From Escherichia coli (GTDB taxonomy: Bacteria; Pseudomonadota; Gammaproteobacteria; Enterobacterales; Enterobacteriaceae), in NCBI RefSeq assembly GCF_030013205.1, contig NZ_CP122648.1: a stretch of DNA of 64,000 bases. The stretch is one strand, 5' to 3'. Below, piece after piece: positions 3,001-9,000 of the stretch (position 1 is the first letter of the stretch; every line of letters begins with the position of its first letter). The position numbers are program-made.

Positions 3001-6000
3001 GTAACTTAATCAGGCACAAAAGGGTAATAAACGCCCCGATACCAATCGCGAAGAAGGTCATTCGCCAGCCAAAATACTGCCCCACAATGCGCCCGAGAGG
3101 TAAACCTAATACCATTGCCAGTGCTGTACCGGTGGCAATTAAACTCAACGCCTGCGCTCGCTTCCCGGCCGGAGCCATACGGATCGCCAGAGACGCCGTA
3201 ATCGACCAGAAAATCGCATGTGCAAAAGCCACACCAATGCGACTGATCACCAGAACGGTAAAGCTCCACGACAAAAACGACAGTACGTGGCTGGCAATAA
3301 ATACCACAAACAGGCAGATCAGTAATTTGCGTCGTTCAACCTGGCTGGTCATTAACATAAAAGGCAATGACATTAGCGCCACTACCCATGCATAAATCGT
3401 CAACATGATGCCGACCTGAGCGGTTTGCATGTGAAAACTTTGCGCAATGTCAGAGAGCAGGCCAACAGGGACAAATTCGGTGGTGTTGAAGATGAAGGCG
3501 GCGACTGCCAGCGTAACGACCCGTAGCCACGCCACTTTGCGGGAAACAGTGTTTGTTGTCATAACAGATTATCGGGTGAGTTGCGAAAAAGTGATGAAAT
3601 GATCTTAAAACGGTTAATGATGTGAATACAATGCATTTGTGATCTGGATCGCGTTTTCCGTTTCTCTGACGCTGATTCTTTCACGCGTCAGAGAGTCGGT
3701 CACATCACGGTTTAATAACGTTCAGGGAGGTCTGGCGTTTTGGAGGTTGCGGGTATAGGTGGTCTGACAGGGGAGCGAGGCCTGTTTTTCACCAGGTCTT
3801 CATGAGTAACTTTTGGCGGCGTTTCATTTTTTACAAAAAGTTTGAGGGTCTTGCACGCCATATGTTTGATAATTTTATCATCACTTAATGATGCTGGCAT
3901 CAACACGTCAATCAAATCACTTTCATTGGGATTCATAAATTGGTGATAGTGCAATAACATATTGGCGAAAAATAAAAACAAGTCCTGAAAATGTGGAAAA
4001 TCTTGTTCTGCTAAAAGGGATAAAAAGCAGATGCAGACTTCGGGTAGTACATGTTTGTTAGAACCTAGTGAATCCATCAGACTTTGCAATAAATCCTCTT
4101 TTAATTCGCTGTCCGTTATGTCGAGAATAGCGGTGAGCAAGTTAGGTTCTTTATTCCCGAACCATCTGTGAACCTCAGAGTTATTCCATAATCGGGGGAG
4201 TATGACAAAATTACCGCGAGAGATAAAATTCAGGACAAGCAAATCAAACTGGCGTAAGTAATCTGCAGCGGTATGGTGATCCGGATGCAGGGGTTCAATA
4301 TGTGGCGTATGCGCTCTTTTGATAGGAACGCCAGGGTTGATTATTGGAAATTGTTCTATAAAGTCATTCAGAAACAGAAAGAGCACACGCTCGACGCCGG
4401 TCTGAAATACGCGCCCCATAGTGACAGGCTTTGGGTTGGGAGCGCAAAAAATATTAATTTCCCCATCATGGCGGAAATTATCTAAATAAATAGGGCTTAA
4501 ATTTATTACTACCTGAAATTCAATATTTTCTTTGTGTCTTCCATTCTTGACGGGATAAGTGAGTTTAAACTGAACCTTTTCATTGTATAGCGTGTCGTTA
4601 CCCCGAAAAGAAGTCCTCTGAATATATGATAAGTTGTCAAGGTTATTAAATATCTTTTTTGTGGCTGAGTTGATGTTTAAAGACGTGCGCCACTCTTCAT
4701 CACAGATTATTGTACTTAGCGCATCAATAAAATCCTTTAAAATTTCTTTTACCTGAGGAGCAATATTACGAACGGGAAAATCATCAGGAAGAGATATGTA
4801 ATTGCTGATGCTTACTGGCGTAACCATATTTGCCCCATATAGTCATAAGTCATCGGAGCATCACTATATAGAGCATATTAGCCGCAAGAACTATCAAAAA
4901 TAGCTCATTGCTAACTCTGTTTTGCCGAGTCAGACACATCCAGTAGTTGAATAAATGCCTCAAGCGGACGCGTTTTCGCACCGCGACGCCAGACCAGCCA
5001 GGTTGTTAACCAACGCCATTGCTCAGCTAACGGCCACGCTTCAACCTGGTGATGCCCCGGCATACTTTCCAGCATAGAGCGCGGAATAAGCGCAATACCT
5101 GCTCCTGCGACCACACAGGCCAACATTCCGTGATAAGACTCCATCTCATGGATAGTTCCCGGAGCGGCACCGTCAGCATGAAACCAGCTCTCGAAGTGGC
5201 GACGATACGAACAATTGGCGCGGAAGGCATAAATGTTACTGCCATTAACCTGACTGGCGCGGGTTACTGGCGCATGTCCTTGTGGCGTGACGATCATCAG
5301 CTCCTCGCGGTACACCGGTATCCCGTCAATGGCAGTATGGTTAATGGGCCCATCAATAAACGCTGCATTCAGTTTTCCCTCCAGCACACCTTCCAGCATA
5401 GTGCCGGAAGGGCCGGTGGAAAGTGAAAACTGAATTTTGGGATAACGACGGTTAAATTGCGCCAGCGTGGCCGGAATGCGCACCGCTGCGGTGCTTTCCA
5501 GCGAACCAAGAGAAAATAAACCTTGCGGCTCATCGCCAGCGACAACGCTCCGCGCTTCATCCACTAACGCGAGAATTTGTTGGCTATAGCGTAAAAAGTT
5601 ATGCCCGGCAGGCGAGAGACGTAAACGCTGATTCTCGCGAATAAACAGATCAACCCCCAGTTCTGTTTCCAGCTGGCGTAGACGGGTAGTGAGATTCGAC
5701 GGCACGCGATGCACTTTTGCTGCAGCCTGGGTAATGCTGCCAGCTTCGGCAACCGCGTTGAACATCTCCAGTTGGGTCAGATCCATAATATTCTCGATTC
5801 ATGAATAAGTGGCTTAATATTATTCATTTTCAAGCAAGAGTAAATCTGCGTATCTTTTTACCATAACTCATAAAGGAGATACCCCGATGACCATTACTCC
5901 GGCAACTCATGCAATTTCGATAAATCCTGCCACCGGTGAACAACTTTCTGTGTTGCCGTGGGCTGGCGCTGATGATATCGAAAACGCACTTCAGCTGGCG

Positions 6001-9000
6001 GCAGCAGGCTTTCGCGACTGGCGCGAGACAAATATAGATTATCGTGCTGAAAAACTGCGTGATATCGGTAAGGCTCTGTGCGCCCGTAGCGAAGAAATGG
6101 CGCAAATGATCACCCGTGAAATGGGCAAACCGATCAACCAGGCGCGTGCTGAAGTGGCGAAATCGGCGAATTTGTGTGACTGGTATGCAGAACATGGTCC
6201 GGCGATGTTGAAGGCGGAACCTACGCTGGTGGAAAATCAGCAGGCGGTTATTGAGTATCGTCCGTTGGGGACGATTCTGGCGATTATGCCGTGGAACTTT
6301 CCGTTATGGCAGGTGATGCGTGGCGCTGTTCCCATCATTCTTGCAGGTAACGGTTACTTACTTAAACATGCGCCGAATGTGATGGGCTGTGCACAGCTCA
6401 TTGCCCAGGTGTTTAAAGATGCGGGTATCCCACAAGGCGTATATGGCTGGCTGAATGCCGACAACGACGGCGTCAGTCAGATGATTAAAGACTCGCGCAT
6501 TGCTGCTGTCACGGTGACCGGAAGTGTTCGTGCGGGAGCGGCTATTGGCGCACAGGCTGGAGCGGCACTGAAAAAATGCGTACTGGAACTGGGCGGTTCG
6601 GATCCATTTATTGTGCTTAACGATGCCGATCTGGAACTGGCGGTTAAAGCGGCGGTAGCCGGACGTTATCAGAATACCGGACAGGTTTGTGCAGCGGCAA
6701 AACGCTTTATCATCGAAGAGGGAATTGCTTCGGCATTTACCGAACGTTTTGTGGCAGCTGCGGCAGCCTTGAAAATGGGCGATCCCCGTGACGAAGAGAA
6801 CACTCTCGGACCAATGGCTCGTTTTGATTTACGTGATGAGCTGCATCATCAGGTGGAGAAAACCCTGGCGCAGGGTGCGCGTTTGTTACTGGGCGGGGAA
6901 AAGATGGCTGGGGCAGGTAACTACTATCCGCCAACGGTTCTGGCGAATGTTACCCCAGAAATGACCGCGTTTCGGGAAGAAATGTTTGGCCCCGTTGCGG
7001 CAATCACGATTGCGAAAGATGCAGAACATGCACTGGAACTGGCTAATGATAGCGAGTTCGGCCTTTCAGCGACCATTTTTACCACTGACGAAACACAGGC
7101 CGGACAGATGGCGGCACGTCTGGAATGCGGTGGGGTGTTTATCAATGGTTATTGTGCCAGCGACGCGCGAGTGGCCTTTGGTGGCGTGAAAAAGAGTGGC
7201 TTTGGTCGTGAGCTTTCCCATTTCGGCTTACACGAATTCTGTAATATCCAGACGGTGTGGAAAGACCGGATCTGACGCTACATATTCAGCTCTGATATAC
7301 TCGCAGGTCTTTTCAGACCTGCGGTCCAGGAGTAGAAAGTGGCAGTCGCCATGGATAATGCAATTTTAGAAAACATCTTGCGGCAAGTGCGGCCGCTCAT
7401 TGGTCAGGGTAAAGTCGCGGATTATATTCCGGCGCTGGCTACGGTAGACGGTTCCCGATTGGGCATTGCTATCTGTACCGTTGACGGACAGCTTTTTCAG
7501 GCCGGAGACGCGCAAGAACGTTTTTCCATTCAGTCTATTTCCAAAGTGCTGAGTCTCGTTGTCGCCATGCGTCATTACTCCGAAGAGGAAATCTGGCAAC
7601 GCGTCGGCAAAGATCCGTCTGGATCACCGTTCAATTCTTTAGTGCAACTGGAAATGGAGCAGGGTATTCCGCGTAATCCGTTTATTAATGCCGGTGCGCT
7701 GGTGGTCTGCGATATGTTGCAAGGGCGATTAAGCGCTCCTCGGCAACGTATGCTGGAAGTCGTGCGCGGCTTAAGCGGTGTGTCTGATATTTCCTACGAT
7801 ACGGTGGTAGCGCGTTCCGAATTTGAACACTCCGCGCGAAATGCGGCTATCGCCTGGCTGATGAAGTCGTTTGGCAATTTCCATCATGACGTGACAACCG
7901 TTCTGCAAAACTACTTTCATTACTGCGCTCTGAAAATGAGCTGTGTAGAGCTGGCCCGGACGTTTGTCTTTCTGGCTAATCAGGGGAAAGCTATTCATAT
8001 TGATGAACCTGTGGTGACGCCAATGCAGGCGCGGCAAATTAACGCACTGATGGCGACCAGTGGTATGTACCAGAACGCGGGGGAGTTTGCCTGGCGGGTG
8101 GGACTACCGGCGAAATCTGGCGTTGGTGGCGGTATTGTGGCGATTGTTCCGCATGAAATGGCCATCGCAGTCTGGAGCCCGGAACTGGATGATGCCGGTA
8201 ACTCGCTTGCGGGCATTGCTGTCCTTGAACAATTGACGAAACAACTAGGGCGTTCGGTTTATTAATGCAGTCTCTCGATCCACTCTTCGCGCGTTTATCC
8301 CGTTCAAAATTTCGCTCTCGGTTTCGTTTGGGCATGAAAGAGCGTCAGTATTGTCTGGAGAAAGGCGCGCCAGTCATCGAACAACATGCGGCGGATTTTG
8401 TCGCTAAACGTCTTGCTCCGGCATTACCGACTAATGACGGTAAGCAAACCCCCATGCGCGGGCATCCGGTGTTTATCGCTCAGCACGCCACTGCAACCTG
8501 TTGTCGCGGTTGTCTGGCTAAGTGGCATAACATTCCGCAGGGTGTTTCGTTAAGCGAGGAACAACAACGTTATATCGTGGCGGTAATCTATCACTGGTTG
8601 GTTATACAGATGAATCAGCCATGATAATTGCGGAAAACGATAAAATAGCATTCCCAGGATATCTTTATTTGCTGCCGCTGTCAGCGAACATGCTATCCTT
8701 TATAAGAATTTACTTATTACGTTGAGATAATTGCCACCCGCAATTGTATGGACAGATAATTAATGCATGTACAGCCCATTTCAACTTTCCGTTTGTTCCA
8801 GGAAGGTCATCTGCTACGTAATAGCATCGCTATTTTTGCGCTAACCACGCTGTTCTATTTTATTGGTGCAGAGTTACGGCTGGTTCACGAACTTTCTCTT
8901 TTCTGGCCGCTGAATGGCGTAATGGCGGGGGTGTTTGCCCGCTATGTCTGGCTTAATCGACTGCATTACTATGCGATCAGTTATGTGGCAATGCTGGTTT

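What the first reader, a model, noticed from the sequence alone, without database searches (positions are those of the whole stretch)
5787..8624. sad-glsB-yneG module with a translationally coupled gene of unknown function
Glutaminase (GlsB) and succinate-semialdehyde dehydrogenase (Sad) are followed by yneG, whose start overlaps the glsB stop (TAATG). This argues that the DUF-type YneG protein works with glutaminase in a glutamine/GABA-to-succinate route under the divergent LysR regulator YneJ.
Basis: partly seen in the sequence, partly recalled or inferred. Interest (0 to 1): 0.3.

Follow-up and report, generated by a model that had tools for sequence, protein, structure and literature searches.

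The report
Known sad-glsB-yneG operon; YneG unexplained
This is the already published E. coli sad-glsB-yneG operon under the regulator PtrR/YneJ; the one-base stop/start overlap is real, but the evidence ties the unknown protein YneG to DNA replication and repair rather than to glutaminase.

Summary
The window is E. coli. It carries ptrR(yneJ) on the minus strand, then sad, glsB and yneG on the plus strand. The glsB stop and the yneG start share one base (TAATG, 8263-8267). yneG has no usable Shine-Dalgarno sequence, so translational coupling is plausible. The overlap is kept in 17 of 19 Enterobacteriaceae loci.

The operon, its control by PtrR/YneJ and the co-induction of all three proteins are already published.

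The inference that YneG works with glutaminase is weak. Among the 80 genome loci most similar to YneG, a glutaminase lies within 6 kb only in Enterobacteriaceae (19 loci). Elsewhere the same very conserved domain (PF13811, DUF4186) is fused to RecD2 or AddA-like helicases and to DUF5131, a radical-SAM superfamily member. In other loci it sits between xseA and xseB, or next to topoisomerase or the YbaK deacylase. It is tightly packed with many unrelated genes.

Recombinant GlsB is active on its own. A 2009 E. coli atlas placed YneG with RecO/RpsJ/RsuA in a pull-down complex, not with GlsB. That atlas put YneG in a DNA-replication neighbourhood and reported a replication-inhibitor phenotype.

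YneG is a basic, all-helical protein with an invariant His/Cys cluster. I found no solved structural relative. Its function is still open.

The parts
4911..5786 (-). ptrR (yneJ), divergent LysR-type regulator
   Evidence: NCBIfam NF047711 PtrR equivalog, 491.6 bits against a cut-off of 400; Pfam HTH_1 + LysR_substrate; annotated ptrR in RefSeq.
5801..5827 (.). Perfect 8-bp inverted repeat ATGAATAA-N11-TTATTCAT in the ptrR-sad spacer; candidate LysR (T-N11-A type) PtrR box
   Evidence: the repeat finder I4. PtrR binding in this spacer is reported by ChIP-exo, ChIP-qPCR and EMSA. That this exact repeat is the site is my inference.
5887..7275 (+). sad (yneI), succinate-semialdehyde dehydrogenase; SD AAGGAG at 5873-5878
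   Evidence: NF010575, 1025.6 bits against 855; Pfam Aldedh; anti-SD pairing -8.7 kcal/mol.
7272..7301 (+). Sigma-70-like promoter CTGACG-18-TATACT with a TG extended -10, in the sad-glsB spacer; possible internal promoter for glsB-yneG
   Evidence: Consensus scan. TGACG and TATACT are invariant in Escherichia, Kluyvera and Citrobacter. An RpoD promoter for 'yneHG' was mapped to this spacer by genomic SELEX, though with different hexamers (PMC3946193). Function not shown.
7302..7323 (+). Stable stem-loop (9-bp stem, 4-nt loop) between that promoter-like site and the glsB SD
   Evidence: RNA fold of 7270-7345: -29.7 kcal/mol, z = -4.31, 0 of 200 shuffles fold as well. The stem core is kept in six sequences, with a paired change in Kluyvera. 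No T-tract follows, so it is not a canonical terminator.
7339..8265 (+). glsB (yneH), glutaminase B, GTG start
   Evidence: NF002132, 612.2 bits against 381; Pfam Glutaminase; RefSeq annotation has the same ends.
8263..8267 (+). TAATG: glsB stop and yneG start share base 8265
   Evidence: Sequence. Kept as TAATG or TGATG in 17 of 19 Enterobacteriaceae loci. No usable SD upstream (-3.8 kcal/mol, 11-nt gap).
8265..8624 (+). yneG, 119-aa DUF4186 protein (13.6 kDa, pI 9.8)
   Evidence: PF13811, 175.2 bits against 25. AlphaFold2 model pLDDT 95, six helices. Invariant D58 G59 Q61 P63 H67 P68 F70 A72 H74 C79 C80 R81 C83. Protein detected and co-induced with Sad and GlsB (PMC11480449).

Best explanation
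The region is the known PtrR(YneJ)-controlled sad-glsB-yneG operon of E. coli.

Shown: the gene identities, the one-base stop/start overlap, its conservation within Enterobacteriaceae, and (from the literature) co-regulation of the three genes and proteins.

Inferred: yneG has no Shine-Dalgarno sequence of its own, so it is probably translated by ribosomes that have just terminated on glsB. YneG output would then follow GlsB output.

YneG is a small, basic, all-helical DUF4186 protein with an invariant His/Cys cluster (H67, H74, C79, C80, C83). I read this cluster as a probable metal site (inferred). I found no solved structural relative.

The link to glutaminase is a gene arrangement found only in Enterobacteriaceae, not a conserved partnership. 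In other bacteria the same domain, about 50-65% identical, is fused to RecD2 and AddA-like helicases and to DUF5131, a radical-SAM superfamily member. It also sits inside xseA-xseB, or next to topoisomerase or YbaK, and it rides tightly behind or in front of many unrelated genes.

My best reading: YneG is an accessory factor that acts on DNA or another nucleic acid during replication or repair. Enterobacteria happen to express it from a starvation- and putrescine-responsive operon. It is not a subunit or regulator of glutaminase.
For: Anatomy and identity.

Coupling: overlap, weak SD, junction kept in 17 of 19 loci.

Operon and regulation.

No conserved glutaminase link: a GlsB match within 6 kb in 19 of 80 loci, all Enterobacteriaceae. 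The 114 immediate neighbours in 59 other loci hit 134 Pfam families. Glutaminase is not among the 25 commonest listed; the only recurrent one is YbaK/tRNA_edit, in 7 loci.

DNA-enzyme context:
- 11 of 59 loci encode RecD2 fused to or split from DUF4186. The L029 protein scores 924.8 bits on the TIGR01448 RecD2 equivalog against a cut-off of 500.
- One AddA/RecB-like helicase carries a C-terminal DUF4186.
- 9 of 50 long homologues carry DUF5131, which RadicalSAM.org lists in the radical-SAM superfamily.
- In Anaerostipes the gene lies between xseA and xseB.
- Neighbours on plasmids include topoisomerase, HU/HIRAN and a UvrA paralogue.

Independent E. coli experiments (PMC2672614):
- YneG is in the DNA-replication neighbourhood with DnaA/B/C/E/G/N/Q/T/X, PriA/B and others.
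- The yneG deletion loses viability on a DNA-replication inhibitor.
- The pull-down complex is RecO-RpsJ-RsuA-YneG.

GlsB is active alone. Tight packing with unrelated partners in 16 of 42 stand-alone loci. YneG keeps all family-invariant residues. Confident model without solved relatives.
Against: - No direct test of YneG binding to DNA, RNA or metal exists.
- I could not read the model coordinates, so the clustering of the His/Cys residues is inferred from sequence and secondary structure only.
- The RecD2 fusions all come from Clostridia, so they may be one or a few evolutionary events.
- The 80 loci kept are those most similar to YneG out of at least 587, so Actinobacteria and other distant lineages are under-sampled.
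- The 2009 neighbourhood assignment is partly a computational prediction. The main text does not name the inhibitor. A basic 13.6-kDa protein may stick to RecO or S10 non-specifically in pull-downs.
- Other fusions (GNAT, NUDIX, glyoxalase/Ble-like, DnaJ) and the YbaK link do not point to DNA.
- The conserved overlap within Enterobacteriaceae, plus scattered neighbours that act on amides, leave some room for a glutamine-related role. These neighbours are an asparaginase in Dermacoccus and AsnA in four loci: Oribacterium and Lachnospiraceae JC7.
Confidence: 0.6

Rival explanations
1. One reading: in Enterobacteriaceae YneG is a dedicated partner of glutaminase B. It could be a regulator, an assembly factor or an ammonia/amide-handling subunit, made in fixed ratio to GlsB through translational coupling and acting in the glutamine/GABA-to-succinate route.
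For: - Overlap kept in 17 of 19 loci and a weak SD of its own.
- Co-regulation of mRNA and protein.
- The genomic-context module in PMC2672614 groups yneH with yneG.
- The other two one-base overlaps in the same 50 kb join true partners, hipBA and lsrCD.
- Scattered DUF4186 neighbours act on amides: an asparaginase in Dermacoccus and AsnA in four loci, Oribacterium and Lachnospiraceae JC7.
Against: - No glutaminase within 6 kb in 61 of 80 loci, including 8 non-Enterobacteriaceae Enterobacterales.
- The domain's invariant residues are unchanged in YneG.
- GlsB is active alone.
- The published pull-down complex lacks GlsB.
- DUF4186 is tightly packed with many unrelated genes.
- The only glutaminase-DUF4186 'fusion' (P0002) is a frameshift read-through.
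- The four AsnA loci come from closely related bacteria.
Confidence: 0.13
2. DUF4186 is a small-molecule-binding or catalytic module, for example one that detoxifies or senses a reactive metabolite or antibiotic, rather than a nucleic-acid factor. Its place in a stress and starvation operon would reflect that chemistry.
For: - Fusions to GNAT acetyltransferases (at least 5 of 50), and to NUDIX, glyoxalase/bleomycin-resistance-like and DUF188 domains.
- An invariant loop D58-G-x-Q-T-P-x-x-G-H-P and an invariant His/Cys cluster that look like an active or ligand site.
- Very high conservation, 50-65% across phyla.
Against: - Helicase and radical-SAM superfamily (DUF5131) fusions are at least as common.
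- The E. coli replication-inhibitor phenotype and the RecO pull-down.
- No fold or sequence match to any known enzyme.
Confidence: 0.17
3. YneG acts on RNA or the translation apparatus (tRNA or ribosome) rather than on DNA.
For: - The YbaK Cys-tRNA(Pro) deacylase lies immediately next to it in 7 of 59 loci. In 5 of these the YbaK gene is downstream with a 4- or 8-nt stop/start overlap. An eighth case is L101.
- A pseudouridine synthase neighbour in three related loci.
- The pull-down complex contains RsuA and S10.
Against: - The fusion partners are DNA helicases and nucleases, not RNA enzymes.
- The published phenotype is with a DNA-replication inhibitor.
- The pseudouridine synthase neighbours come from closely related bacteria.
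Confidence: 0.1

Closest known systems
E. coli sad-glsB-yneG (yneIHG) operon of the PtrR/YneJ regulon
   Same: Same genes, order, spacing and divergent regulator. The stretch is 100% identical to sequenced E. coli chromosomes and annotated identically. Regulation is described in bioRxiv 10.1101/2020.04.27.065417, PMC9283627 and PMC11480449.
   Different: Nothing structural. The papers I read list YneG only as an uncharacterised DUF4186 protein and do not discuss the stop/start overlap.
Pfam PF13811 (DUF4186)
   Same: Full-length match (residues 7-112, 175.2 bits), and all invariant residues of the family are present.
   Different: In Enterobacteriaceae the gene follows a glutaminase. In other lineages the domain is fused to RecD2 or AddA-like helicases, DUF5131 or GNATs, or lies beside YbaK, ExoVII subunits or topoisomerase.
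Translationally coupled gene pairs with a one-base overlap (for example hipB-hipA and lsrD-lsrC in the same chromosome segment)
   Same: The same kind of one-base stop/start overlap (coordinates), and a downstream gene with a weak SD.
   Different: hipBA and lsrCD encode proteins known to form complexes. For GlsB and YneG no interaction is known, and co-occurrence is limited to one family.
Metal-binding accessory domains on DNA helicase-nucleases (for example the iron-sulfur 'staple' domain of AddB; recalled from general knowledge, not tested here)
   Same: A small Cys/His-rich module attached to the C-terminus of RecD2 and AddA/RecB-like helicases.
   Different: No sequence or fold similarity to any solved domain. 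Neither the metal nor DNA binding has been demonstrated.

Membership tests
PF13811 / DUF4186 | Score above Pfam's gathering threshold over the full domain | tested here: met
   175.2 bits against 25; residues 7-112 match profile positions 3-108 of 109.
PF13811 / DUF4186 | Invariant motif D-G-x-Q-T-P ... H-P-x-F-x-A-x-H ... C-C-R-x-C | tested here: met
   D58 G59 Q61 P63 H67 P68 F70 A72 H74 C79 C80 R81 C83 are invariant in 77 diverse sequences that include YneG. The same columns are invariant in 50 multidomain homologues.
PtrR (YneJ) regulon operon sad-glsB-yneG | Gene content and order, with the divergent LysR regulator | tested here: met
   Equivalog-level matches for PtrR, Sad and GlsB; order and strands; RefSeq annotation.
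PtrR (YneJ) regulon operon sad-glsB-yneG | A PtrR operator in the ptrR-sad spacer | tested here: inconclusive
   A perfect ATGAATAA-N11-TTATTCAT repeat lies at 5801-5827. Binding in this spacer is published, but I could not compare the repeat with the published logo.
PtrR (YneJ) regulon operon sad-glsB-yneG | Co-transcription and co-regulation of the three genes | not testable with these tools
   Taken from the literature: RNA-seq, qRT-PCR and proteomics. No terminator-like site was found between glsB and yneG.
Translationally coupled gene pair | Stop and start codons overlap or abut | tested here: met
   TAATG at 8263-8267; kept in 17 of 19 related loci.
Translationally coupled gene pair | The downstream gene lacks an effective ribosome-binding site of its own | tested here: met
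   Best anti-SD pairing -3.8 kcal/mol at an 11-nt gap. 27% of random 25-nt windows reach -4.0 or better.
Translationally coupled gene pair | Downstream translation depends on upstream translation | not testable with these tools
   Needs a premature stop in glsB with a YneG reporter.
   GlsB match within 6 kb in 19 of 80 loci, all Enterobacteriaceae. Glutaminase is not among the 25 commonest of the 134 neighbour families elsewhere.
   Published hints are negative: GlsB is active alone, and the YneG pull-down complex holds RecO/RpsJ/RsuA.
DNA replication/repair accessory factor (my proposal) | Recurrent fusion or adjacency to DNA-processing enzymes | tested here: met
   RecD2 fusions in 11 of 59 loci; one AddA-like fusion; DUF5131 fusions; placement between xseA and xseB; topoisomerase and UvrA-paralogue neighbours. 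The number of independent events is uncertain.
DNA replication/repair accessory factor (my proposal) | Binding to DNA or to replication/repair proteins; a DNA-related phenotype | not testable with these tools
   One published high-throughput study reports both (PMC2672614). They have not been confirmed independently.

The most novel reading that the evidence does not exclude
DUF4186/YneG is an undescribed metal-binding fold that acts as an accessory factor in DNA replication or repair. It is covalently attached to RecD2 and AddA-type helicases in some bacteria and free-standing in others. Enterobacteria have wired its expression to a glutamine/putrescine starvation operon, which would link nitrogen and polyamine stress to DNA maintenance.
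Probability: 0.3. Interest if true: 0.55.

Novelty: already known. Interest (0 to 1): 0.25.

Why it matters
As stated, the finding adds nothing new. The operon, its regulator and the co-expression of YneG are in the literature and in RefSeq annotation.

The useful result here is negative. A one-base stop/start overlap should not be read as proof of a functional partnership. DUF4186 genes are packed just as tightly against many unrelated genes in other bacteria.

The positive lead is that YneG belongs to a very conserved family with no solved structural relative, whose fusions and one old E. coli screen point to DNA replication or repair. A protein of 119 residues with an invariant His/Cys cluster is easy to purify and test.

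Tried and rejected
- Single-sequence AlphaFold2 of YneG gave an unusable model (pLDDT 41). The run with an alignment gave pLDDT 95.
- Sequence and profile searches of PDB gave no hits better than E of about 1.
- PADLOC matched only the helicase parts of the fusion proteins, not DUF4186. NCBIfam has no model for YneG.
- Three 50%-cluster representatives lay on metagenome contigs of about 1 kb with no context.
- An apparent glutaminase-DUF4186 fusion protein in E. coli (P0002) is a frameshifted glsB 3' end reading into yneG. It is not a natural fusion.
- I considered a general link to amide/ammonia enzymes: glutaminase, an asparaginase in Dermacoccus, and AsnA in Oribacterium and Lachnospiraceae JC7. 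It amounts to about three separate cases among dozens of lineages, which is too few to separate from chance.
- No terminator-like site was found after yneG, and none between glsB and yneG.

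
Full report
**What is in the sequence.** The window is E. coli. Positions 5787-8624 are 100% identical to several swine E. coli chromosomes. At least 80% of the stretch is present in 5410 of 5426 complete E. coli genomes, annotated sad | glsB | yneG.

The ORF list and the sequence give:
- ptrR/yneJ at 4911-5786 on the minus strand
- sad at 5887-7275
- glsB at 7339-8265 (GTG start)
- yneG at 8265-8624
- a GGDEF diguanylate cyclase gene from 8763

Curated models confirm the names:

| Protein | Model | Score (bits) | Cut-off |
|---|---|---|---|
| PtrR | NF047711 | 491.6 | 400 |
| Sad | NF010575 | 1025.6 | 855 |
| GlsB | NF002132 | 612.2 | 381 |
| YneG | PF13811 (DUF4186) | 175.2 | 25 |

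The glsB stop (TAA, 8263-8265) and the yneG start (ATG, 8265-8267) share one base.

**Is the overlap meaningful?**
- One-base overlaps are ordinary. In 50 kb of the same chromosome, 3 of 39 same-strand neighbour pairs have one: glsB/yneG, lsrD/lsrC and hipB/hipA.
- yneG has no usable Shine-Dalgarno sequence. Its best pairing with the 16S rRNA 3' end is -3.8 kcal/mol with an 11-nt gap. That lies within the random background, where 27% of windows reach -4.0 or better. The values for sad and glsB are -8.7 and -6.9.
- The junction is kept as TAATG or TGATG in 17 of 19 Enterobacteriaceae loci that carry glsB-yneG. The exceptions are Mangrovibacter, with a 19-nt spacer, and one metagenome-assembled genome, with a gap of about 215 nt and its own SD.
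- No terminator-like or promoter-like site separates the two genes.

Translational coupling is therefore a reasonable inference, but it has not been demonstrated.

**What is already known.**
- PtrR (YneJ) was shown by ChIP-exo to bind the ptrR-sad spacer. yneH, yneI and yneG mRNAs change together in a ptrR mutant (bioRxiv 10.1101/2020.04.27.065417).
- A second study showed YneJ binding by ChIP-qPCR and gel shift, strongest with glutamine, and YneJ-dependent expression of sad-glsB-yneG (PMC9283627).
- Proteomics of a YneJ E97A strain showed all three proteins raised by one to two orders of magnitude (PMC11480449). YneG is therefore a real, co-regulated protein.
- In all of these papers YneG is simply called uncharacterised.
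- A perfect ATGAATAA-N11-TTATTCAT repeat at 5801-5827 is a good candidate for the LysR box.

**Does YneG belong with glutaminase?** I built a 77-sequence alignment of the domain from distant homologues and scanned one genome per species. At least 587 loci encode a relative, and the 80 most similar to YneG were kept.
- A GlsB match lies within 6 kb in 19 of the 80 loci, all Enterobacteriaceae in the strict sense.
- It is absent in Mixta, Pectobacterium, Pantoea, Rahnella, Erwinia, Tatumella and Hafnia.
- It is absent in about 51 loci from Lachnospiraceae and other Clostridia, Gastranaerophilales, Planctomycetes, Acidobacteriota, Acetobacteraceae, Prevotella and others, even at E <= 1e-3.
- The 114 immediate neighbours in the 59 non-Enterobacteriaceae loci hit 134 different Pfam families. 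Glutaminase is not among the 25 commonest listed. The only recurrent family is YbaK/tRNA_edit, in 7 loci.
- YneG keeps every residue that is invariant in the family, so its chemistry is probably the same as where no glutaminase is nearby.
- Among 42 stand-alone loci outside Enterobacteriaceae, 16 have a co-directional gene within 20 nt. These neighbours include topoisomerase, an MlaA-like protein, FolD, an amylase-family protein and YbaK. In 5 loci the YbaK gene follows with a 4- or 8-nt stop/start overlap.
- Further examples of short gaps are XseA, peptide deformylase, an AAA ATPase and DUF2339.

Tight packing is thus a habit of this small gene, not a sign of a specific partner.

**What the domain is associated with instead.** Of the 59 loci, 18 encode DUF4186 inside a protein of 200 residues or more.
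- 11 loci carry a RecD2 helicase region fused to or split next to DUF4186. In L029 a complete RecD2 (OB_YrrC, HHH, AAA_19/30, SH3_13, UvrD_C_2) has DUF4186 at its C-terminus. It scores 924.8 bits on the TIGR01448 RecD2 equivalog, against a cut-off of 500.
- 5 loci share another N-terminal region. In L048 it gives a weak, below-threshold match to DUF5131.
- Among 50 long cluster representatives, 9 carry DUF5131, about 5 carry RecD/UvrD-type helicase domains, and one is an AddA/RecB-like helicase with a PD-(D/E)XK nuclease. Others carry GNAT, NUDIX, glyoxalase-like or DnaJ domains.
- DUF5131 is listed in the radical-SAM superfamily, in megacluster 5-2; spore photoproduct lyase is in 5-3 (PMC9477430).
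- In Anaerostipes the gene lies between xseA and xseB, the two exonuclease VII subunit genes.
- On plasmids it lies beside a topoisomerase (Methylobacterium), beside HU and a HIRAN protein (Sphingobium), and, as a 484-aa fusion, near a UvrA paralogue (Streptomyces).

**Independent experiments in E. coli.** The 2009 functional atlas (PMC2672614) reports the following.
- YneG is in the DNA-replication neighbourhood (Table S17, with dnaA/B/C/E/G/N/Q/T/X, priA/B, holA/B, hda, dam and ydaU).
- The affinity-purification complex is RecO, RpsJ, RsuA and YneG (Table S7).
- Only the genomic-context module groups yneG with yneH (Table S9).

Separately, recombinant YneH purified alone is a fully active glutaminase at pH 6 and above (PMC3641589). 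These are high-throughput data and need confirmation.

**The protein itself.** YneG is 13.6 kDa with a pI of 9.8. With the alignment, AlphaFold2 gives a confident model (pLDDT 95, pTM 0.88) of six helices.

The invariant residues are D58, G59, Q61, P63, H67, P68, F70, A72, H74, C79, C80, R81 and C83, with W87 and H88 nearly invariant. H67 and H74 flank one helix, and C80-x-x-C83 starts the next. This looks like a metal site, but that is my inference; I could not inspect the coordinates.

**Verdict.** The module is real, ordinary and already described. The overlap probably does couple YneG synthesis to GlsB synthesis. It does not show that the two proteins work together, and the available evidence points elsewhere.

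I rate the probabilities as follows: an accessory role in DNA or nucleic-acid transactions about 0.4-0.5; a small-molecule role about 0.17; a glutaminase partnership about 0.13; an RNA or translation role about 0.1.

**Caveats.**
- The RecD2 fusions may be one or a few events within Clostridia.
- The loci kept are biased towards close relatives of YneG.
- My gene calls in foreign loci are simple longest-ORF calls.
- The E. coli replication link rests on a single screen.

Noticed in passing
window 7272-7323: The 63-nt sad-glsB spacer holds a promoter-like CTGACG-18-TATACT with a TG extended -10. It is followed at once by a very stable hairpin (stem 7302-7310 / 7315-7323; fold z = -4.3). Both are conserved in Escherichia, Kluyvera and Citrobacter, with one paired change in the stem. 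In the predicted fold, outer pairs also cover the glsB SD. The element could be an internal glsB-yneG promoter with a 5' stabilising hairpin, or a processing or attenuation site.
   Followed up: partly
L036, L041, L042, L044, L055, L065, L070, L101: In eight loci from different groups (Melainabacteria/Gastranaerophilales, Acetobacteraceae, Bacilli and unnamed metagenome bins) DUF4186 is immediately next to a YbaK-type Cys-tRNA(Pro) deacylase gene. In five of them the YbaK gene follows with a 4- or 8-nt stop/start overlap. This is phylogenetically wider than the glutaminase link and is unexplained.
   Followed up: partly
L091-L093 (Anaerostipes), gene at 4001-4375: DUF4186 is inserted between xseA and xseB (exonuclease VII large and small subunits) inside the conserved nusB-xseA-xseB-ispA-dxs cluster.
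   Followed up: no
window 8625-8765: The 138-nt spacer after yneG has no terminator-like site. A promoter-like TTGCCA-18-GATAAT ends 3 nt before the annotated ATG (8763) of the 472-aa GGDEF protein, and that ATG has almost no SD (-3.0 kcal/mol). The true start or the transcript layout of this gene (dgcF/yneF) may differ from the annotation.
   Followed up: no
window about 1044-1470 (from the identical RefSeq record): marR is annotated as frameshifted in the strain whose 5787-8624 stretch is 100% identical to the window. Loss of MarR would derepress marA, the activator of the AcrAB multidrug efflux pump.
   Followed up: no
window about 29970-37861 (from the identical RefSeq record): A run of frameshifted or split genes: a LysR regulator, two amidohydrolase fragments, a carboxymuconolactone decarboxylase and a partial HTH regulator. 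They lie next to a type 1 glutamine amidotransferase-domain gene, and the island appears to be decaying.
   Followed up: no
protein P0002 (E. coli, 200 aa): A database protein that carries both Glutaminase and DUF4186 domains is a frameshifted glsB 3' end (…LTKTIRAFSLL) reading straight into yneG. This is an annotation or sequencing artefact made easy by the one-base overlap.
   Followed up: yes
BFVD A0A481Z275 (Pithovirus LCPAC001, 241 aa): A giant-virus protein contains a clear DUF4186 fold (TM-score 0.82 on the query, 30% identity). The domain also occurs in three uncultured phage records.
   Followed up: no
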